25,085 nt of DNA from IMG/VR virus record IMGVR_UViG_2778261692_000009, positions 1 through 25,085 of that record; one strand, 5' to 3'. A program made the position numbers and the translations under genes. The DNA is from a virus. Lineage: Duplodnaviria; Heunggongvirae; Uroviricota; Caudoviricetes. The notes beneath the pieces are model-generated. The model worked only from the letters and a program-made list of their open reading frames with translations. It made no database searches and had not been told where the DNA came from. Positions 14,045 through 25,085 of this stretch are shown here, one piece after another. Numbering within the stretch: the stretch's first letter is position 1; each line of letters starts with the position of its first letter.

Positions 14045-14073
14045 AGGTAATGACTAAGCTGAAGTCATTACCT
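14045..14073. terminator. stem-loop (11-bp stem, 7-nt loop) between convergent Q and OLD-like genes; candidate terminator
   Basis: aggtaatgact-aagctga-agtcattacct; the minus-strand side is followed by a U-rich tract, and the stem overlaps the OLD-like stop codon. Confidence 0.4.
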
Positions 14074-15994
14074 CTCTAATCTCACTAATCCACTCTGGAA
14101 CACTATTTTCTTCCGCCATTAATTCAACATATCTTTTTGCGAATAAAAACTTATTATTTCCATCATCAAAAAATCTATTTATGGCATTTTTTTCACTAAC
14201 TCTGAGATCAAGAGCTGAGTAAGATTCCAGATTATCACTTGGAGCATCAATATTATTAATGAAACTTAAATAATCGTAATCACCAGCAAATGACAATAAG
14301 GTCTGGTAATAGATTTTTGCGTTCAAAACATCCTCTATCTCAGTTGCAGGCGATACCGGATTTGAGTCTATCTTAACTAAGATCGCCCTGTTTTTAGACG
14401 AATCATAAACAAATCTTTTACAATGTAATCTTTGATATGTTCCGACGTCATATCTGACCAACTGGCTATCAGTATCAGCTAACAAATATATATTTCCGGT
14501 AATCTCCCCTTCGACATCCTTATAGCAGGCAGAGAGATAGTTATATATTTTTTTAATTTCCGACGCCCCCCCAACAGGTACAATACGAAGATTATGATTC
14601 TTTATCAAATCCTTAAAATATGCTGAAAGATAAATTCTTTCCGATGAACCCTCACAAATCAACCAATTATATGGTTTCTCACCTGTTGCACTAGATAATA
14701 ATGACTGAGTAAAATCATTCATACTTTTAATTCTAATATCAAATGGTAACTTTCCCCTACTATCTCGAACAAGTTGTTTTATTTCTTCCCGGTAAGATGC
14801 TAAATTGATCAGATCAAAAAGATGCTCATTATTTTTTTTAGTTATTATTGTAACAGTTCCCTTTTCCAAGGTGGGGAGAAAACCATACCAATGAGAGGAA
14901 AACAATAGTTGCCTACATCCTAAACTTAGTTCTGATAACGCTTGAAATTGTTCAAAACAAGCAGACATGTGCAATGAAGACTCAGGCTCATCTATGGCTA
15001 TGATTAAATTATCACTATTACTTCTATGCTTTGTCAGCAATGCATGCGCAACATCAATAATAGCCTTCTGCTTTTCCCCCGAACTCAAATTACTAATTTC
15101 TAAAAAATGCTCGCCATTGTGGGTTTTATGTAATTTTCTGACGTTAAAAAACGCTTGTATAATTAAGTTATAGACTTCTTTTTTTTGAATTCTTTTTTGC
15201 CTATCCGAAGGCGTTCTATACGTATAGTTAACTAGCTTCGTTGAGATATCTTCAAGAAATCCGCTTAGTTCTCTGTTGATTTCTCCAATTTTTGACTCAC
15301 CAACTATTCTATCAAGAATTTCATGCAGCGATTCACCCATCAATACTTGAGTTCCAATACTCTCAAGCTTAGTAAAAACCTCAGTATCAATCTCTTTTGG
15401 TATATATAAATATTCTAACTTACCAGTGATATAATCAAATAAAACTTGAAAATGTTTAGCTAACTCTATACCTTCACTTAACTTGAATCCGGCACCAAAT
15501 ATATCTTTTTCCATTATAGTAGATAGACTTCTACCTGCTAAAACAGATAATGACATATTATTATTATGAAGGCGTCCAATAGGAATAATTAACTGCCCTT
15601 GCATATCATTTCGTGCAAAAAGTCTATCACGATGACTTATAAAATTTTCAAGAATAGTTTTTGTTTGTGAGTTTGTAGCATCCTCTAAGCTAACTTCCCT
15701 AGCTAAAGCATCTAGCGTTTTTGCAAAAGGGAGTGTCTCAGAATCAAAAAAATCCTCCTCCAATATAAAAACCGGTACAATATGTGGGCTGGTTTTTTCT
15801 ATGCCGCTCTTTTTGACAGCTGTATTATAATTCCACTCTTTAGCATTAAATATTACATCCAATGCCTCAAGTATTGAGCTTTTCCCTATCCCATTATTTC
15901 CTAAGAAACCGCTAAAATTTGGAGCGTCTGTCAAAGGAATATAATTTATGCCTTGATATGTTTTGACGTTACGGATAAACAACCCGGCTATCAT
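14054..15994 (-). CDS. OLD-family nuclease-like protein (N-terminal ABC/AAA ATPase plus C-terminal TOPRIM)
   Basis: Walker A GNNGIGKSS; signature-like SSGEKQ; Walker B LIIAIDEPESSLH; C-terminal LICEGSSE...IVPVGGASE...YLLADTDSQ collinear with recalled P2 Old TOPRIM motifs (LLVEGKTE...IVAVDGKG...ILADCDF). Likely start is Met29 at 15994 (MIAGLFIRNVKTYQ, AAGGTAGG ribosome-binding site); ORF track extends to 16078. AT-rich. Confidence 0.8.
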   Translation of the reverse strand: MIAGLFIRNVKTYQGINYIPLTDAPNFSGFLGNNGIGKSSILEALDVIFNAKEWNYNTAVKKSGIEKTSPHIVPVFILEEDFFDSETLPFAKTLDALAREVSLEDATNSQTKTILENFISHRDRLFARNDMQGQLIIPIGRLHNNNMSLSVLAGRSLSTIMEKDIFGAGFKLSEGIELAKHFQVLFDYITGKLEYLYIPKEIDTEVFTKLESIGTQVLMGESLHEILDRIVGESKIGEINRELSGFLEDISTKLVNYTYRTPSDRQKRIQKKEVYNLIIQAFFNVRKLHKTHNGEHFLEISNLSSGEKQKAIIDVAHALLTKHRSNSDNLIIAIDEPESSLHMSACFEQFQALSELSLGCRQLLFSSHWYGFLPTLEKGTVTIITKKNNEHLFDLINLASYREEIKQLVRDSRGKLPFDIRIKSMNDFTQSLLSSATGEKPYNWLICEGSSERIYLSAYFKDLIKNHNLRIVPVGGASEIKKIYNYLSACYKDVEGEITGNIYLLADTDSQLVRYDVGTYQRLHCKRFVYDSSKNRAILVKIDSNPVSPATEIEDVLNAKIYYQTLLSFAGDYDYLSFINNIDAPSDNLESYSALDLRVSEKNAINRFFDDGNNKFLFAKRYVELMAEENSVPEWISEIREVMTSA

Positions 15995-16084
15995 ATCTAT
16001 ACCTACCTTGGAATTAAAGAATGCTTTAGCACTTTGAAAACTTGCTGCAAATGATAACAGCATCGACATGGTTTGCAACGCGCG

Positions 16085-16489: not shown

Positions 16490-17020
16490 ATGGCTACTAC
16501 CAACTGTATTACTGTACTTACTGCTCGTGGTTTAACAGAGATTTTGAACACAGGGGGAAGCCAAGCATGGAGACTTGACGCCAGCCATGCAGCTAAGCAC
16601 GAATATTTAGTTTGTGTACAAAATTCGAGAAAGGACTGGGGATCACAAGAAGCAAAACATCATCATGCTTTTATGATCGGTCGAATCTCGGGAGTAAGCA
16701 GGGCTCCAGAAAACCCTAAACGCTGGATCATAAACATCAATTCTTATGCTGAAATTGACATCCCAGGACAATGGGATGGCAATCGGAATCCCGTATCTTA
16801 TCGCAACCTCAAAGACATTGGCATTGAGGCTGACAAGTTGGAATTTAAAGCTCTTCCAAAATTAACCCCGACTAATTCGATTGTCGATCAAGCGGGTGAT
16901 GAGTACGAAGAAGAAGAAGAAAATGTAGTTAAGCCGTTAACACTTCAGGAGGCAAAAGCAGGGCTAGCCCTATACTTTGGTGTTAATGAAGAAAATATTC
17001 AAATAACTATACAAGGTTAA
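16490..17020 (+). CDS. hypothetical protein (176 aa, acidic C-terminal tract)
   Basis: ORF preceded by about 390 bp of AT-rich non-coding DNA; contains DEYEEEEEN; no family recognised; opposite strand to neighbouring phage genes. Confidence 0.5.
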   Translation: MATTNCITVLTARGLTEILNTGGSQAWRLDASHAAKHEYLVCVQNSRKDWGSQEAKHHHAFMIGRISGVSRAPENPKRWIININSYAEIDIPGQWDGNRNPVSYRNLKDIGIEADKLEFKALPKLTPTNSIVDQAGDEYEEEEENVVKPLTLQEAKAGLALYFGVNEENIQITIQG

Positions 17021-17241
17021 GGCTTTTAAACCGGCATAAGTGGCCATTACTTTTCGTTCGAAGTGGCGCTTCCGGTCTAACAAGCATCTAATAGGATTTT
17101 CGTATCTATCACAAATCCCAAAAGGTAATTTGCAGCCCATCATACGTAGCAAAACTAACGTTCGGTTAAATCTGAGCGGAAGTGAAAATAATGGTTACTG
17201 TATTTTACCCCATGACTAATGCCCCACTAAACTAGTTGTTC

Positions 17242-17284
17242 AACGTTGCTGACGTCAGAAGCAAGTTCAGACGCCAGCAACGTT
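17242..17284. terminator. imperfect inverted repeat just downstream of the DinI-like gene; possible terminator
   Basis: aacgttgctg (17242-17251) pairs with cagcaacgtt (17275-17284) around a 23-nt loop; the stem extends by 3 bp with one mismatch (17-nt loop); a TTTCTT tract follows on the plus strand. Confidence 0.25.
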
Positions 17285-17286
17285 TC

Positions 17287-17520
17287 TTAATGCAGCCAGC
17301 TGTCGTCTTCCCACACCTTCTGCATAATTTTCATCACTTGTTTTCTTTCTTCGTCCAGTTGCAGTCCGGTCAGTTCCACACCATTAGAGCTACCTTTACG
17401 GATACGAATTACCGCTTTGGGATACAGGGGGCGCAGATTGCGGTAAAGCTCGGATTCAAGGGCGTCCAGAGTAGACTGGCTAATTTTCTGCTCTTTATCG
17501 ATCATTATTTCAATGCGCAT
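17287..17520 (-). CDS. DinI-family protein, Tum-like SOS-induced antirepressor candidate
   Basis: From the internal Met at 17520 (MRIEIMIDKEQKISQSTLDALESELYRNL...VWEDDSWLH) the protein resembles E. coli DinI (MRIEVTIAK...ALAGELSRR...TWESADDWF); GAGGTGG ribosome-binding site upstream; downstream of a LexA box. Confidence 0.8.
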   Translation of the reverse strand: MRIEIMIDKEQKISQSTLDALESELYRNLRPLYPKAVIRIRKGSSNGVELTGLQLDEERKQVMKIMQKVWEDDSWLH

Positions 17521-17530
17521 AAAAGCCACC

Positions 17531-17719
17531 TCAACTGATGACATCCATTGAGCGGTTGTATTCGTGGATTCTGATCTTTGCCATGAGTTCATCAGTCAAT
17601 TCAGAAACCCACTGCAGAGCCAGCCCCTTCTCTTCATCACTACACTCACTAGCCGCTACAAGCTTAAGAAAAAAATCAATGCGCTGGAGCTTCAAAGACT
17701 CCAAAAAATAGTCCTGCAT
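17531..17719 (-). CDS. small hypothetical protein, first gene of the LexA-controlled operon
   Basis: 62 aa from the ATG at 17719 with a perfect AGGAGG ribosome-binding site; its stop lies 11 nt upstream of the DinI-like start; different reading frame from the DinI-like ORF. Confidence 0.5.
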   Translation of the reverse strand: MQDYFLESLKLQRIDFFLKLVAASECSDEEKGLALQWVSELTDELMAKIRIHEYNRSMDVIS

Positions 17720-17762
17720 TTTTCCTCCTATGACACCACAAGCAATACTGTATGTATAACCA

Positions 17763-17778
17763 CTGTTTATATTTACAG
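17763..17778. promoter_or_regulatory. LexA operator (SOS box) overlapping the promoter of the Tum-like operon
   Basis: CTGTTTATATTTACAG is a perfect CTGT-N8-ACAG with an AT-rich spacer; on the minus strand a -35 TTTACA (17803..17798) and -10 TACTGT (17780..17775) are 17 bp apart, with the -10 overlapping the box. Confidence 0.7.
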
Positions 17779-17872
17779 TATATAATAATCTTACTGATGT
17801 AAAACGTTTTTTTACATTCATTAGCATGATATGCCTGGTATTATTAAGAGCACGAATTGTTAGCCCGCGGAA

Positions 17873-20287
17873 TTAATACAGGTTCCGCCACTTATCATCT
17901 TCCCGCAAACGCTGGTTCCGATAGAAGATACGCAGGCCTGCTCCTGACGGAATACTGCCGCCGCGAAGGAGTAAATCGACCTCTTTCTCGCTACCATCAA
18001 ATCCTCTGGACTTCAGCTCATAGACGAGCTGCAGTCGCTGATGGTCTGTAATTCGCTGTTTGTAGTCTTTACGCCGTTTCGGTTTAACCAGGCGTAACCT
18101 TGCTGCCAGTTCCCAGCGCTCTTTTTTGCTCTTACTGTGCAGGTAATCGTGCAACTCCTTGTCATCCATGCGGGTAATGTCCGTTCTAGTGCCCCCATCA
18201 GCTGATTTATCTTTCTCCTGTTGGTTCAAATTTTCAGCAAGGGGACAGTTATTGCCACGAGTCCAAGGGGCGCAAGCGCCCTGGTCGGCTGCCGCCTCCT
18301 GAACGTCAACGGCTTTACGAACCATTTTCCACTTCACTGCATGAGTGCAGATCTTGCCCTCTGCAATGGGTGACCAGATGCCATAAATACGAATGCCGTG
18401 ATCGCCATAGGCGGTCGGCTCTTCGTTGATTTCATAAGCGGTTCTGATGAGGTGATATTTACGGGGAACCAGTACGCCGCCCTGCTTCATGATGTAGGTG
18501 GCAAAACAACCAGCATCAGCAGCAGCCAGGATGGCATCAAGGCGCGGGTTATCCAATACCGGCGCACCTGCTTTTTTGTCCCCCTTTTGCCTTACCGCCT
18601 GACCAGCCAGCAATCGCAGTTCACGGTAAGCCTGACGCCCCGGAATGCCAAAGAAGCGGAATTGCTGAACACGATGCAAAGACGCCCAGGCATTCACGTA
18701 TTCAGCGTTATCACGCAGAGATTTACCCGTTTCCTTGCTGATCTCGCCAGCCAGACCACGCCCGTCAATGTTCTTACTGATGTATTTCGCTATGTAGCTT
18801 GTCGGCGTTCCTTTGCGCGGGTTAATCAGCTCAGACTTAAAGCGCGGCCCCGTGTTATTGCCCAGCTCCTCGCGGTCTTCACGGATAGCAAACTTACGCA
18901 ACAATGCTGTAATGGCGCGGCGGTCTTTTTTGCGCATGAAACACAACAGGTGCCAGTGAACTGTGCCGTCGTGATGCGGCTCAGCCACCCGCACGCCATA
19001 CCAGCGCAACCCGGCTTTGTGCATCGCCTTACGAAATGCAGCAAACATACCGACCAGATAATCGCTGCTTTGTCTTACCGTCGCATTTGTCCAGGTCGGG
19101 TTGGGCCTGCCGTTATTTAGCGTGGAATGGAAACGTGACGGACAGGTGATGGTGTAGAAAACGGCGCAGTCACCGCGCATTTCCGCGATAAGCTCCAGAC
19201 CTTTAACACAGGCCATCATCTCATTGCGGCGATGCGCAGGGTTGCTGCTGCTGGCGTTTACCACATCCTCCATGTCTAGCGTGTCGCCGTCTTCGTTCAC
19301 CAGTTCATGAGAACGGAAAAACTCCAGCGACTTACGGCGCTGCTCACGTTTATGCAACACGGCTTCATAGCTGACATAGGGAGATGCTTTTTTGCTGACA
19401 AGGCAGACAGCACGCAACTGCTCTTCCCGCCATTCGCAACGCATCTTCCATAATTTCCGATACCACCAGTCGGCGCACAACATACGCGCCAGCGAACCCG
19501 GAATGAGTTCATAGGGCACGGGTTTACGGCGGTTTCTTTTCCGACGGAGTTGCTCAAACGCAGGCGGGATGACATCCAGACGCAGGGTTTCCGCTGCCAC
19601 CCTTTCCCATGTATTGCGGATTTCTTCTGGCTTAACGTCATCGGTGGCATACAAATCGCCACAAGCGGCATCAAGGCACATACTCATATGCGCAGCTACC
19701 AGGGTGGACAGGCGTTTCACCTGATCCTGACTCATTTCAGGCAGGATCAGCAGGCCGTCCAGCCCTTCATGGCTTGCCATAAAGCGAAAAGATGCAGATA
19801 GCTGACTGTCGCGTACATGCTCCAGTCGTTCCAGACATGGCTTAATCGTCTCACGTAAATAGCGGGAATAAGCCTTTGGCCTGCCCAGGCTGCTGAAGTA
19901 TTCAATACGTTGCATCAGCGGCTTGCTGATATGGGAAGGCTGGGCGTTGACGTCCGCCAGAATGACCATATCCGGATTAAAACGCTGCTGCTCATGCGCC
20001 AGCTTTGCCCGACTAATGAGCTTATCCTGTTCCATTTCGCGCTGGACAGGATCACGGGATTCATTAAAGAAATAACGCTCCCAGACCTGATCACTCAGCG
20101 CCTCACGGCGCAGCTGTTCCTGCTCGTTATCGGCAGCGTACAGAGTGATCAGGTTTGAAAGCGTAGAAACCGGCGCAACTTCCACCGGGTCCAGATAAGG
20201 GTTAATGGCCTTTTTCGAGCTGTTCCATGAGAACGATGCGGCAGCTTCGTTAAAGCCGCAGCAGTTGTTCATATCGGCATGACTCAT
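17873..20287 (-). CDS. A: replication initiation endonuclease (P2 gpA-like, rolling-circle HUH family)
   Basis: 804 aa; HUH-like motif (VHWHLL) and paired active-site tyrosines (YIAKYISK), as in P2 A; start overlaps the Dam stop. Confidence 0.9.
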
Positions 20288-22942: not shown

Positions 22943-23067
22943 GATGCAACATTCCTCGTTTAATGATGATTAATCAGGACGAATACGGATCGTTTGTATT
23001 TTGTGAACACCATAAACATACGATCGCACGTTGAAATCGTCAAGATAAAAGTTCACTTGGAGTGACC
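22943..23067. promoter_or_regulatory. lysis-lysogeny switch region (early lytic promoter, cI promoter and operators)
   Basis: Intergenic region between divergent apl-like and cI genes; contains an imperfect inverted repeat GGATCGTTTGT ... ACATACGATCG that may be operator half-sites. Confidence 0.5.
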
Positions 23068-23637
23068 ATGAATTTGGAGAAAGGCGGACGAGGCGCCATA
23101 GAGCGCATGGTAGAAGCTTATGGATTCAAGACTCGACAGGCGTTGTGCGATCATTTAGGAATCTCTAAAAGTACACTCGCCACACGCTACATGCGTGACT
23201 CATTCCCAGCAGAATGGGTAATCCAGTGCGCCCTTGAAACAGGCACCTCGCTTAATTGGCTCACAACCGGGCATGGTTCAAAGCAAACTTCAGGTAATAC
23301 AAATACTATGGAAGTTGCTAAATATGTATTATCTGATGGGGCCTTGTGTGAAGACGGTTTTTATATTTTCGATAGAGAATTTCTACCGTCGGCATTCAAG
23401 AATCTTTTTGTAATCACAGATAATAATTCTGAATTTATTTGTGATAAGGAATTTGATGATATACGTGATGGTAAATGGGTAATAAGTATTGATGGCGAAA
23501 TAACGATCCGTGACATTACTCGTTTACCCGGTGGAAGAATCTTCGTCGAGGGTGGAAACAGAGCCTTTGAATGTAAGATAGAAGACATTGAAATAATTGG
23601 TAAAATTATAAGTTTAACAGTCAAGTATGTTAAATAG
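23068..23637 (+). CDS. cI: CI-type immunity repressor (186 CI-like)
   Basis: About 190 aa; N-terminal helix-turn-helix-like region (QALCDHLGISKSTLATRY); ATG at 23068 with a GGAG ribosome-binding site (ORF track uses GTG at 23062); AT-rich; upstream of int. Confidence 0.7.
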   Translation: MNLEKGGRGAIERMVEAYGFKTRQALCDHLGISKSTLATRYMRDSFPAEWVIQCALETGTSLNWLTTGHGSKQTSGNTNTMEVAKYVLSDGALCEDGFYIFDREFLPSAFKNLFVITDNNSEFICDKEFDDIRDGKWVISIDGEITIRDITRLPGGRIFVEGGNRAFECKIEDIEIIGKIISLTVKYVK

Positions 23638-23652
23638 TACCGGGAGGAAATT

Positions 23653-23844
23653 ATGCTTGGTAAGGTATTTTTTGTGGTTTTGTCATGTTCTTTGTTATTA
23701 AACCCACTAGCTACCTATGCTAGAAATTATCCCTGCTCAGGGAAAAAGGGAGGTGTTTCTCACTGTACCTCTGATGGCAAATTCGTTTGCAATGATGGAA
23801 CTATTAGTAAATCCAAAAAAATCTGTACTAAAAACTCACGATAA
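23653..23844 (+). CDS. small secreted cysteine-rich peptide (63-aa precursor)
   Basis: Strong ribosome-binding site (GGGAGG, 5-nt spacing); predicted signal peptide [23 protein letters not shown]; mature part of about 40 aa with four Cys; AT-rich; between cI and int. Confidence 0.5.
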
Positions 23845-24032
23845 CTTTTGCTTTTATATCTGCGCCTAAAATAAAAATGAGCCACAGGTTAACCGCAAAA
23901 GTTACATGATCACATAGCAAAAAGAATAGCCTACTTCATTATGGCTTCAGTGAGATGTATGGTCGCAGGATTTCATACATTGACACTGGTTATACATACA
24001 GTAAAAATGCTCTCTATTGGAGGGCATTTTTT

Positions 24033-25085
24033 ATGGCTGTACGAAAACTCACCACAGGAAAATGGCTTTGCGAATGTTACCCCGCCGGACGTAGTGGGCG
24101 TCGTGTGCGTAAACAATTCGCCACCAAAGGCGAAGCACTGGCTTTTGAGCGTCACACGATGGAAGAAACCGAAGCAAAGCCCTGGCTAGGTGAATCAGTG
24201 GATCGTCGAACACTGAAAGACGTGGTTGAGCTATGGTTCAAACTACATGGTAAATCACTGACTGCTGGGCAGCATGTCTATGACAAATTGCTGCTGATGG
24301 TTGACGCTCTGGGCAATCCCCTTGCAACTGATCTAACCTCTAAAATGTTTGCCCACTATCGAGATAAACGCCTGACAGGTGAGATCTACTTCAGCGAGAA
24401 ATGGAAGAAAGGAGCAAGCCCGGTCACCATTAACCTGGAGCAAAGCTATCTAAGTAGTGTTTTTAGCGAACTATCCCGCCTGGGCGAATGGTCGTATCCG
24501 AACCCACTGGAGAACATGCGAAAATTCACCATCGCAGAAAAAGAGATGGCATGGCTTACCCATGAGCAGATTGTTGAATTACTGGCTGATTGCAAACGTC
24601 AGGACCCAATTCTGGCACTGGTAGTTAAGATATGCTTAAGCACAGGCGCACGCTGGCGAGAAGCCGTAAATCTTACTCGTTCACAGGTGACCAAATACCG
24701 AATTACCTTTGTAAGAACGAAGGGGAAGAAAAACAGAAGCATCCCTATCAGTAAAGAGCTTTACGAAGAGATCATGGCGCTTGATGGGTTCAATTTCTTC
24801 ACAGACTGCTATTTTCAATTTTTATCCGTGATGGAAAAAACGTCTATCGTGCTCCCTCGCGGTCAACTCACACACGTTCTGCGCCATACGTTTGCGGCGC
24901 ACTTCATGATGTCGGGTGGAAACATTCTGGCCTTACAAAAAATTCTCGGACACCACGATATAAAAATGACTATGCGTTACGCACATCTGGCACCGGATCA
25001 TCTGGAAACGGCGCTCCGTTTCAATCCTCTGGCAACGCTGCCAAGTGGCGACAAAGTGGCGGCAGCGGTTGGCATTACCCCGTAA
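24033..25085 (+). CDS. int: tyrosine integrase (P2 Int-like)
   Basis: Internal Met MAVRKLTTGKW... with a GGAGGG ribosome-binding site; C-terminal catalytic region ...HVLRHTFAAHF...LGHHDIKMTMRYAHL; stop codon is the last three bases of the window, so attL/attR should lie just beyond. Confidence 0.9.
   Translation: MAVRKLTTGKWLCECYPAGRSGRRVRKQFATKGEALAFERHTMEETEAKPWLGESVDRRTLKDVVELWFKLHGKSLTAGQHVYDKLLLMVDALGNPLATDLTSKMFAHYRDKRLTGEIYFSEKWKKGASPVTINLEQSYLSSVFSELSRLGEWSYPNPLENMRKFTIAEKEMAWLTHEQIVELLADCKRQDPILALVVKICLSTGARWREAVNLTRSQVTKYRITFVRTKGKKNRSIPISKELYEEIMALDGFNFFTDCYFQFLSVMEKTSIVLPRGQLTHVLRHTFAAHFMMSGGNILALQKILGHHDIKMTMRYAHLAPDHLETALRFNPLATLPSGDKVAAAVGITP

What the first reader, a model, noticed from the sequence alone, without database searches (positions are those of the whole stretch)
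17287..17803. LexA-controlled two-gene operon ending in a DinI/Tum-like antirepressor candidate
A perfect SOS box (CTGTTTATATTTACAG) overlaps a plausible -10 for a minus-strand promoter that drives a 62-aa ORF and then, 11 nt later in another frame, a DinI-family ORF. In phage 186 a LexA-repressed tum gene gives SOS induction, unlike P2. This prophage is therefore predicted to be SOS-inducible through a Tum-like antirepressor acting on its CI. The split into two ORFs of 62 and 78 aa, versus a single Tum of about 146 aa as I recall it, may reflect a frameshift or a genuinely bipartite arrangement.
Basis: partly seen in the sequence, partly recalled or inferred. Interest (0 to 1): 0.6.

Follow-up and report, generated by a model that had tools for sequence, protein, structure and literature searches.

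The report
SOS-controlled split Tum antirepressor operon
This is the DNA-damage (SOS) induction switch of a Fels-2/186-type P2-like prophage: a LexA-repressed promoter drives a small antirepressor gene (tumA) and a DinI-like gene (tumB), an arrangement already described for phages Fels-2 and PSP3, so it is real but ordinary.

Summary
A LexA box lies at 17763-17778. It matches the 20-nt consensus in 17 of 20 positions, a score that 0 of 100 shuffles reach. It overlaps the -10 of a minus-strand promoter that precedes a 62-aa ORF (17531-17719) and a 77-aa DinI-family ORF (17287-17520). The ORFs are 10 nt apart and in different frames.

This is the SOS operon of a Fels-2-like prophage; the two proteins are 97% and 99% identical to Fels-2 STM2728 and STM2726.1. 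The prophage's CI is 186-type and shows no autocleavage domain. The 62-aa ORF is a homologue of the N-terminal half of 186 Tum (PSP3 TumA). The DinI ORF corresponds to the C-terminal half (TumB). The likely antirepressor is therefore the upstream ORF, not the DinI-like one.

The split is genuine:
- It is conserved across many enterobacterial genera.
- dN/dS is about 0.08 for both genes.
- It is present in 1125 of 5426 complete E. coli genomes.
- It is already published for Fels-2 and PSP3.

- The operator is a colicin-type double overlapping SOS box.
- TumA divergence tracks gpA divergence, not CI divergence.
- A second LexA-like box sits inside a promoter-like element upstream of int.

Novelty is low.

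The parts
17798..17803 (-). -35 hexamer TTTACA of the tumA promoter (the p95 equivalent)
   Evidence: Read from the sequence. Conserved at a fixed 17-nt distance from TACTGT in 33 distinct promoter sequences, while the spacer itself varies. Same layout as the annotated 186 p95.
17775..17780 (-). -10 hexamer TACTGT, which is the left end of LexA box 1
   Evidence: Identical hexamer and role in the annotated 186 p95. The consensus promoter scan does not call it.
17763..17778 (-). LexA box 1, CTGTAAATATAAACAG (promoter-proximal SOS box)
   Evidence: the 20-mer matches the consensus in 17 of 20 positions, and 0 of 100 shuffles reach this. Present in 33 of 35 related loci.
17748..17763 (-). LexA box 2, GTGGTTATACATACAG, overlapping box 1 by 1 nt (colicin-type double operator)
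   Evidence: Aligns column for column with the double SOS boxes of the ColE1 cea and pPst pesticin promoters. The Fels-2 box-2 20-mer is identical to that of ColE1. 22 of 33 loci have the double form. LexA binding was not tested.
17531..17719 (-). tumA: 62-aa predicted antirepressor, homologue of the N-terminal half of 186 Tum and of PSP3 TumA
   Evidence: 96.8% identical to Fels-2 STM2728. phrog_698 at E 3.5e-37; 186 Tum residues 1-70 hit the same PHROG at 6.7e-6. hhalign E 5.5e-4 with a colinear alignment. Intermediates P0265 and P0288 link the two families by BLASTP. dN/dS 0.08. AF2 model is a helical hairpin, pLDDT 90.
17287..17520 (-). tumB: 77-aa DinI-family protein, homologue of the C-terminal half of 186 Tum ('truncated Tum')
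   Evidence: Pfam DinI E 7e-23. 40% identical to Tum residues 71-145. 29% identical to E. coli DinI. 98.7% identical to Fels-2 STM2726.1 and 77% to PSP3 TumB. Below the NCBIfam DinI equivalog cut-off, 41.8 against 111 bits. dN/dS 0.07.
17242..17284 (-). Conserved stem-loop 3 nt after the tumB stop; probable end of the operon (no U-tract)
   Evidence: MFE -30.7 kcal/mol, z-score -3.8. 17 pairs, 7 of them with compensatory double changes across 16 loci. The same hairpin directly follows tumA in loci that lack tumB. No orf97 homologue follows.
23062..23637 (+). cI: 186-type immunity repressor, the presumed target of TumA
   Evidence: PF07022 (HTH domain) + PF16452 (C-terminal domain), with no peptidase S24 hit. 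33% identical to 186 CI over the full length, E 8e-38.
17873..20287 (-). Gene A-like replication endonuclease directly upstream, in the same position as in 186, PSP3 and Fels-2
   Evidence: PF05840 at E 1.7e-127. Synteny shown.

Best explanation
This is the SOS (induction) operon of a Fels-2-like, P2-family prophage with a 186-type lysis-lysogeny switch.

1. In the lysogen, host LexA occupies an operator that overlaps the -10 and start region of the promoter. Here the operator is a colicin-type pair of overlapping boxes, so probably two LexA dimers bind.
2. DNA damage activates RecA, LexA cleaves itself, and tumA-tumB is transcribed.
3. TumA is a 62-aa two-helix protein homologous to the N-terminal half of 186 Tum. 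It binds the 186-type CI repressor, which shows no autocleavage domain, and stops it from binding its operators. The early lytic promoter then fires.
4. TumB, the DinI-like half, is an accessory modulator. It probably acts on RecA filaments and is not needed for antirepression.

Shown here: the sequence features, the homologies, the conservation and the purifying selection. Taken from the literature: the Tum mechanism, LexA control of p95, and the split tum of Fels-2 and PSP3. Inferred: LexA binding at this site, the TumA-CI contact, and inducibility of this particular prophage.
For: - **Box and promoter.** establish them. Their layout equals the annotated 186 p95 with its LexA site.
- **Conservation.** The box is conserved in 33 of 35 loci. 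Box and gene are lost together in the one decayed copy.
- **Double operator.** It aligns with the ColE1 cea and pesticin promoters. Colicin double boxes bind two LexA dimers (PMC2994835).
- **TumA is homologous to the Tum N-terminal half.** PHROG cross-hits and hhalign E 5.5e-4. A profile search finds intermediates such as P0265, which is 50% identical to TumA (E 2e-19) and 41% identical to Tum residues 5-43 (E 7e-11). tblastn with Tum also reads through the stop codon in same-frame relatives.
- **TumB equals Tum residues 71-145**, which is the annotated truncated Tum.
- **Known relatives.** Near-identity to Fels-2 genes. PSP3 annotates tumA as 'UV induction of prophage' and tumB as DinI-like.
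- **Literature.** Lemire et al. 2011 state that Fels-2 and PSP3 have tum split by a stop codon and that the upstream PSP3 gene encodes the antirepressor. Bunny et al. [quoted passage not shown] The p95-tum module gives UV induction of the 186 switch (PMC7708051).
- **Repressor type.** CI is 186-type with no S24 domain hit.
- **Both genes are selected.** dN/dS is 0.08 and 0.07. tumB is dispensable in 13 of 33 loci.
Against: - No experiment exists on this element. LexA binding and the TumA-CI interaction are inferred.
- The antirepressor assignment for the split form rests on a personal communication cited in PMC3121763 and on the PSP3 record's note.
- The -10 is weak and the generic promoter scan does not call it.
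- Within the Fels-2-type family, TumA divergence does not follow CI divergence (Mantel r -0.07, p 0.75). It follows gpA instead (r 0.70, p 0.0005). A tightly co-evolving binding pair would not be expected to behave this way.
- A related prophage, BTP5, expresses tum, yet infectious phage was never detected, with or without mitomycin C (PMC5322425 and PMC7067206).
- The operon-end hairpin has no U-tract.
Confidence: 0.85

Rival explanations
1. One reading: the DinI-like ORF (tumB) is the antirepressor that inactivates CI, and the 62-aa ORF is a leader or unrelated small gene.
For: 186 Tum contains a DinI-like half. Many database records name the whole of Tum 'DinI'.
Against: - tumB is missing from 13 of 33 loci and truncated in 3 more, and all of these retain tumA. 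All but the decayed L035 also retain the SOS box.
- The DinI-only product of 186 is annotated as a modulator, not the antirepressor.
- The PSP3 record and Lemire 2011 assign the induction function to the upstream gene.
- The core of tumA (codons 1-50) has dN/dS 0.06.
- Deleting the dinI homologues in Gifsy prophages had no significant effect on induction.
Confidence: 0.05
2. The split is a frameshift or nonsense lesion in an originally fused tum, so the locus is a decaying pseudogene and the prophage is no longer SOS-inducible.
For: 186 and about 28 Eganvirus records carry a fused 146-aa Tum. In the window the two ORFs are in different frames.
Against: - The stop codon, the Shine-Dalgarno sequence and the ATG junction are conserved in about 20 loci from many genera.
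- Both ORFs are under strong purifying selection.
- The arrangement is present in 1125 of 5426 complete E. coli genomes, and in Fels-2 and PSP3.
- 186 itself translates the DinI half separately from an internal GTG with its own SD. Fused and split forms therefore produce overlapping sets of products.
Confidence: 0.02
3. The operon is SOS-regulated but is not the induction switch. TumA and TumB would act on host SOS or RecA physiology, or on other co-resident elements. This prophage would be induced some other way or not at all.
For: - TumA does not co-vary with CI.
- The same TumA type sits beside CIs that are only 30-87% identical to the window's CI, including one that is 60% identical to 186 CI.
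- BTP5 expresses tum without detectable phage production.
- TumA has no curated family and no solved structure.
Against: - TumA is homologous to the Tum domain of 186 and to PSP3 tumA.
- Of the 33 loci, 26 kept a 186-family CI, which has no autocleavage domain and therefore needs an antirepressor. In the other 7, some on short or decayed contigs, no CI was found.
- Fels-2 makes lexA null lethal (title cited).
- The CIs share invariant N-terminal-domain residues that could form a common docking surface.
Confidence: 0.08

Closest known systems
Fels-2 (Salmonella LT2) STM2728 / STM2726.1, the split tum locus
   Same: The proteins are 96.8% and 98.7% identical. The promoter region is almost identical, including both SOS boxes. 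The position after gene A is the same.
   Different: In Fels-2 a 243-aa gene, STM2726, follows tumB. In the window the operon ends at a conserved hairpin, and different cargo follows (an OLD-like ATPase-TOPRIM protein and a 176-aa ORF).
PSP3 tumA / tumB
   Same: The two-gene split is the same. tumA is annotated 'similar to 5' end 186 tum; UV induction of prophage'. tumB is DinI-like and 77% identical to the window's ORF-B. Both lie downstream of gene A behind a LexA box.
   Different: PSP3 TumA is only about 22% identical to the window's TumA. Its operator is a single box. Its two ORFs are in the same frame, separated by a stop codon. Its cI is annotated at 286 aa, and the window's CI found no tblastn match in the part of PSP3 that I fetched, which holds only the last 79 nt of that gene.
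Coliphage 186 p95-tum (SOS operon)
   Same: A LexA box overlaps a TACTGT -10. An antirepressor acts on a 186-family CI. A DinI-like module is also made as a separate product. The position after gene A is the same.
   Different: In 186 the two halves are fused into a 146-aa Tum. The operator is a single box. orf97 follows a partial terminator. The N-terminal domains are about 16-20% identical, so the relationship is detectable only with profiles or intermediates.
Colicin and pesticin promoters (ColE1 cea, pPst pst)
   Same: The double SOS operator has two boxes overlapping by 1 nt and is nearly the same sequence. The box-2 20-mer of Fels-2 is identical to that of ColE1.
   Different: The downstream genes are unrelated (bacteriocins versus a phage antirepressor). 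The -35 region and the leader differ.
Gifsy dinI-gfoA/gftA LexA-controlled antirepressor operons
   Same: A LexA-repressed operon pairs a DinI homologue with a small antirepressor that acts on a non-cleavable repressor.
   Different: The gene order is reversed (dinI first). I did not test the antirepressors and repressors for homology with TumA or the 186-type CI. The host phage is lambdoid.

Membership tests
Tum-type SOS antirepressor operon (186 p95-tum; PSP3 tumA/tumB; Fels-2) | A LexA operator overlaps the promoter of the operon. | tested here: met
   The box lies at 17763-17778 and overlaps the -10. It is conserved in 33 of 35 loci. The layout is the same as the annotated 186 p95. Physical LexA binding was not tested.
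Tum-type SOS antirepressor operon (186 p95-tum; PSP3 tumA/tumB; Fels-2) | It encodes a homologue of the Tum N-terminal (antirepressor) domain. | tested here: met
   Direct BLASTP finds nothing. PHROG cross-hits, hhalign at E 5.5e-4 and transitive BLASTP through P0265 and P0288 establish homology. The ORF is 96.8% identical to the Fels-2 gene.
Tum-type SOS antirepressor operon (186 p95-tum; PSP3 tumA/tumB; Fels-2) | It lies immediately downstream of replication gene A in a P2-like genome. | tested here: met
Tum-type SOS antirepressor operon (186 p95-tum; PSP3 tumA/tumB; Fels-2) | The cognate immunity repressor is 186-type CI and is not RecA-cleavable. | tested here: met
   PF07022 + PF16452 only, with no S24 hit. 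33% identical to 186 CI. Absence of cleavage itself was not tested.
Tum-type SOS antirepressor operon (186 p95-tum; PSP3 tumA/tumB; Fels-2) | The protein binds CI and blocks its DNA binding, and is required for UV or mitomycin induction. | not testable with these tools
   This is known for 186 Tum (cited), and for PSP3 only from an annotation note and a personal communication.
DinI family (PF06183) | Sequence match above the Pfam gathering threshold over the whole domain. | tested here: met
   ORF-B scores 81.2 bits against a cut-off of 24.2, covering profile positions 1-63 of 63.
Host DinI equivalog (NCBIfam NF007893) | Score above the equivalog cut-off of 111 bits. | tested here: not met
   41.8 bits, and 29% identity to E. 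coli DinI. It is a DinI-like paralogue, not the host DinI.
Colicin-type double SOS operator | Two LexA boxes overlap by 1-2 nt, and each carries the CTG/CAG-type half-sites. | tested here: inconclusive
   The geometry and sequence align with ColE1 and pPst. Box 2 starts with GTG rather than CTG, as it does in ColE1 and pPst. Occupancy by a second LexA dimer was not tested.

The most novel reading that the evidence does not exclude
The Fels-2-type TumA may be an immunity-independent, generic antirepressor for the whole 186 family of CI repressors. It stays 61-100% identical across loci whose CIs share a median of only 41% identity (range 29-99%), and its divergence tracks gpA rather than CI. 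If so, one SOS-induced TumA could cross-induce heteroimmune P2-like prophages in polylysogens.

In this phage lineage the SOS wiring would have three parts:
- a colicin-type double LexA lock on tumA;
- the DinI-like TumB;
- a separate LexA-box-containing promoter for int.
Probability: 0.3. Interest if true: 0.5.

Novelty: already known. Interest (0 to 1): 0.25.

Why it matters
The practical value is in annotation. The 62-aa gene is labelled 'hypothetical protein', or wrongly 'levan regulatory protein', in about a fifth of complete E. coli genomes and in most phage records. It has no Pfam, NCBIfam or PADLOC model. It is nevertheless very probably the protein that decides SOS induction of a very common prophage family.

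Recognising it as TumA, and the downstream gene as TumB rather than as the antirepressor, predicts which P2-like prophages respond to DNA-damaging antibiotics.

The double colicin-type operator suggests tight, threshold-like control. The lack of TumA-CI co-variation suggests possible cross-induction. Both ideas are cheap to test.

Tried and rejected
- **Direct BLASTP** of ORF-A against 186 Tum gave no alignment. Profiles and intermediates were needed.
- **No match for ORF-A** in Pfam, NCBIfam, PADLOC or PDB sequence searches.
- **Structure.** The AF2 model of TumA is a confident helical hairpin. Foldseek against BFVD found nothing significant, best E 0.7; the fold is too simple to be informative.
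- **Generic promoter/terminator scan** called neither the promoter nor the operon-end hairpin. Its single terminator-like hit, at the tumA/tumB junction, is at the chance rate.
- **Rfam** found nothing in 16900-18000.
- **Co-variation test.** I expected TumA to co-vary with CI as support for a binding pair. The Mantel test was negative. I report this as evidence against strict specificity rather than discarding it.
- **orf97 / STM2726 homologue** downstream: none in the window or in the 33 loci.
- **Literature gaps.** Bunny et al. 2002 (PMC151935) is not held, so only its title and the summary in PMC3121763 could be used. Two P2-like and Eganvirus phylogeny papers do not mention tum or SOS.
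- **Extended ORF rejected.** The 98-aa ORF starting at 17827 would run through the promoter and operator. It is not conserved in related loci, and PGAP and the Fels-2 record use the 62-aa start.
- **Fused versus split census.** The search for homologous proteins with the Tum N-terminal half returned mostly 63-92-aa proteins and no 146-aa form in its top 120 hits. That list cannot be used for a census. The phage-database tblastn shows both forms.

Full report
**1. What is in the sequence**

All features below are on the minus strand, directly after the stop codon of an 804-aa gene-A-type replication endonuclease (17873-20287; PF05840, E 1.7e-127). In order, the sequence reads:
- an A-tract;
- TTTACA (17798-17803);
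- a 17-nt spacer;
- TACTGT (17775-17780);
- the 16-mer CTGTAAATATAAACAG (17763-17778);
- a 59-nt leader (box 1 start to ATG) containing AGGAGG;
- a 62-aa ORF (17531-17719);
- 10 nt containing GAGGTGG;
- a 77-aa ORF in another frame (17287-17520).

The loose pattern CTGT-N8-ACAG occurs once in the window but is not rare by chance (18 of 100 shuffles). The 20-mer matches the LexA consensus in 17 of 20 positions. It is the only such site in the window, and 0 of 100 shuffles contain one. The generic sigma-70 scan does not call the promoter. Its identification rests on having the same architecture as the annotated p95 promoter of phage 186, where TACTGT is both the -10 and the left end of the LexA site, and on conservation (section 3).

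**2. Identity of the two ORFs**

ORF-B is a DinI-family protein (Pfam E 7e-23).
- It aligns without gaps to residues 71-145 of 186 Tum at 40% identity, E 1e-23.
- It is 29% identical to E. coli DinI.
- It falls below the NCBIfam equivalog cut-off for host DinI.
- Residue 71 of Tum is the GTG start of the 'truncated Tum' that the 186 record annotates as a separate product that modulates SOS induction.

ORF-A gives no BLASTP alignment to Tum, but homology is established in four independent ways.
- (a) ORF-A hits phrog_698 (3.5e-37), phrog_8554 and phrog_1993. Tum residues 1-70 hit phrog_1993 (2e-23), phrog_8554 (3e-12) and phrog_698 (6.7e-6) over the same positions.
- (b) Profile-profile comparison of the two families gives a colinear alignment, 1-57 against 1-55, at E 5.5e-4. 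The HH-suite probability is only 30% for these short, shallow profiles.
- (c) A profile built only from Fels-2-type sequences, searched against 1.84 billion representatives, found 85 small proteins. Among them, P0265 is 50% identical to ORF-A (E 2e-19) and 41% identical to Tum 5-43 (E 7e-11). P0288 is 50% identical to Tum 7-42 (E 4e-11).
- (d) tblastn with full-length Tum reads through the stop codon in relatives where the two ORFs share a frame (PSP3, MLG42, 500465-1).

ORF-A and ORF-B are 96.8% and 98.7% identical to Fels-2 STM2728 and STM2726.1. PSP3 annotates the equivalent pair as tumA ('similar to 5' end 186 tum; UV induction of prophage') and tumB ('similar to dinI and 3' end of 186 tum').

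**3. Comparative evidence**

The 700-bp locus is present in 1125 of 5426 complete E. coli genomes, annotated 'hypothetical protein | DinI-like family protein'. It is also present in 67 phage records. I fetched 33 loci from one-genome-per-species contigs. They span Escherichia, Citrobacter, Kluyvera, Serratia, Raoultella, Enterobacter, Lelliottia, Leclercia, Klebsiella, Pantoea, Tatumella, Erwinia, Siccibacter and Buttiauxella.

- A CTG-N10-CAG box lies upstream of tumA in 33 of 35 loci (counting the window and Fels-2). One exception is a contig with only 53 nt of upstream sequence. The other is L035, where the box is mutated and tumA is frameshifted, so box and gene decay together.
- The -35 hexamer and the box are conserved at fixed spacing, while the spacer between them varies.
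- Both genes are under strong purifying selection. dN/dS is 0.08 for tumA (0.06 for codons 1-50) and 0.07 for tumB.
- tumB is absent in 13 of the 33 loci and truncated in 3 more. tumA is always present.
- A conserved stem-loop follows the last gene of the operon, whether that gene is tumB or tumA. In the window it lies at 17242-17284 (-30.7 kcal/mol, z -3.8). Across 16 loci, 7 of its 17 pairs show compensatory double substitutions. It has no U-tract, so calling it a terminator is an inference.
- No orf97 or STM2726 homologue follows. In the window this is therefore a two-gene operon.

**4. Context**

The window is a P2-like (Peduoviridae, Fels-2/Elveevirus-like) prophage. It has a 186-type switch:
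- CI with PF07022 + PF16452 and no S24 peptidase hit, 33% identical to 186 CI;
- an Apl-position ORF;
- CII (PF06892);
- Fil.

A repressor without an autocleavage domain needs an antirepressor for SOS induction. That is the established 186 mechanism: LexA-repressed p95 drives Tum, which sequesters CI (PMC7708051; PMC3121763). Lemire et al. 2011 state explicitly that Fels-2 and PSP3 have tum split in two by a stop codon. [quoted passage not shown] 2002). [quoted passage not shown]

**5. Mechanism and verdict on the interpretation**

The best explanation (confidence about 0.85) is that this is a LexA-controlled tumA-tumB operon. TumA is the antirepressor of the 186-type CI, and TumB is an accessory DinI-like modulator. 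The 'frameshift or bipartite' question resolves clearly to a genuine bipartite arrangement that is already known.

**6.

(a) *Double operator.* The operator is double. Box 2, GTGGTTATACATACAG (17748-17763), overlaps box 1 by 1 nt. A 76-nt query hit 814 plasmids, among them small colicin- and pesticin-type plasmids. The region aligns column for column with the ColE1 cea and pPst pesticin promoters. The Fels-2 box-2 20-mer is identical to that of ColE1. [quoted passage not shown] 22 of the 33 loci have the double form. 186 and PSP3 have a single box.

(b) *TumA does not track CI.* Within the Fels-2-type family, TumA divergence does not follow CI divergence (Mantel r -0.07, p 0.75) but follows gpA (r 0.70, p 0.0005). 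The same TumA type sits next to CIs that are 30-87% identical to the window's CI, including one that is 60% identical to 186 CI. This argues against tight pairwise co-evolution. It is compatible with TumA recognising an invariant CI surface; invariant residues cluster in the N-terminal domain. It also leaves room for a rival reading in which TumA has another target.

(c) *A LexA-like box upstream of int.* The exact 17-mer TGGTTATACATACAGTA of box 2 recurs at 23987-24003 (chance expectation 0.03). See the item for 23973-24035 under things noticed in passing.

**7. Novelty and score**

The element is a near-identical copy of the Fels-2 split tum locus, which is described in the literature, so I rate it 'already known'. 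Its main value is in annotation: TumA has no curated family model anywhere. The double operator, the lack of TumA-CI co-variation and the int box are modest, testable additions. Interest 0.25.

Noticed in passing
window 23973-24035 (+): A promoter-like element lies upstream of int. It reads TTGACA (23980-23985), a spacer that is itself a CTG-N10-CAG LexA-type box (CTGGTTATACATACAG, 23986-24001), then an A/T-rich -10-like hexamer. A hairpin plus T-run follows, and its 3' arm (GGAGGG) is the int Shine-Dalgarno sequence. Its 17-mer TGGTTATACATACAGTA is identical to box 2 of the tumA operator (chance expectation 0.03). The layout recurs with a different box sequence (CTGTTCAAACATACAG) in L011 and L037, and also in L005, Klebsiella phage 4LV2017 and E. 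coli phage 813R9. In all other loci int abuts cI, as in 186. It may be a LexA-gated int promoter specific to this integrase type.
   Followed up: partly
window 17748-17763 (-): A second LexA box overlaps the first by 1 nt, giving a colicin-type double operator. It is nearly identical to the ColE1 cea and Y. pestis pesticin promoters. This promoter module is shared between bacteriocin plasmids and P2-like prophages.
   Followed up: yes
window 17242-17284 (-): A conserved stem-loop lies right after the operon, with 7 compensatory pairs across 16 loci and conserved flanks (AACGTTGC...GCAAGGTTGAACAACGAG), but no U-tract. It marks the boundary with the variable cargo region. Its role (terminator, RNA stabiliser or recombination boundary) is open.
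   Followed up: partly
window 14054-16078 (-) and 16490-17020 (+): The cargo between the SOS operon and the portal gene differs from Fels-2 and from E. coli MS1665. One gene encodes a 674-aa ABC-type ATPase with an OLD-like TOPRIM domain (Pfam AAA_15, AAA_21, OLD-like_TOPRIM; weak PADLOC hits to AriA, Old and AbiLi). A convergent 176-aa ORF has no family match. This is probably an anti-phage defence cargo region in the position where P2 carries old and tin; that position is from my own knowledge, not checked here.
   Followed up: partly
window 23654-23845 (+): A small ORF of about 63 aa lies between cI and int: [23 protein letters not shown]..., with a signal-peptide-like N-terminus and a Cys-rich tail. 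In 186 and most relatives cI and int abut, so this is a likely moron insertion.
   Followed up: no
loci L005-L037, window cI 23062-23637: The CI repressors next to near-identical TumA genes are highly mosaic (median pairwise identity 41%), while gpA and TumA stay at about 81-82%. CI residues invariant across all loci are mostly in the HTH domain: R15, Y20, F22, S35, S37, R42, R45, C56, T60, G61, W66, G70 and G72.
   Followed up: partly
window 17531-17827 (-): Many database entries extend the 62-aa gene upstream to 84-101 aa, running through the promoter and operator (one search hit lengths; the 98-aa ORF). Some label it 'levan regulatory protein'. These are probably annotation errors.
   Followed up: partly
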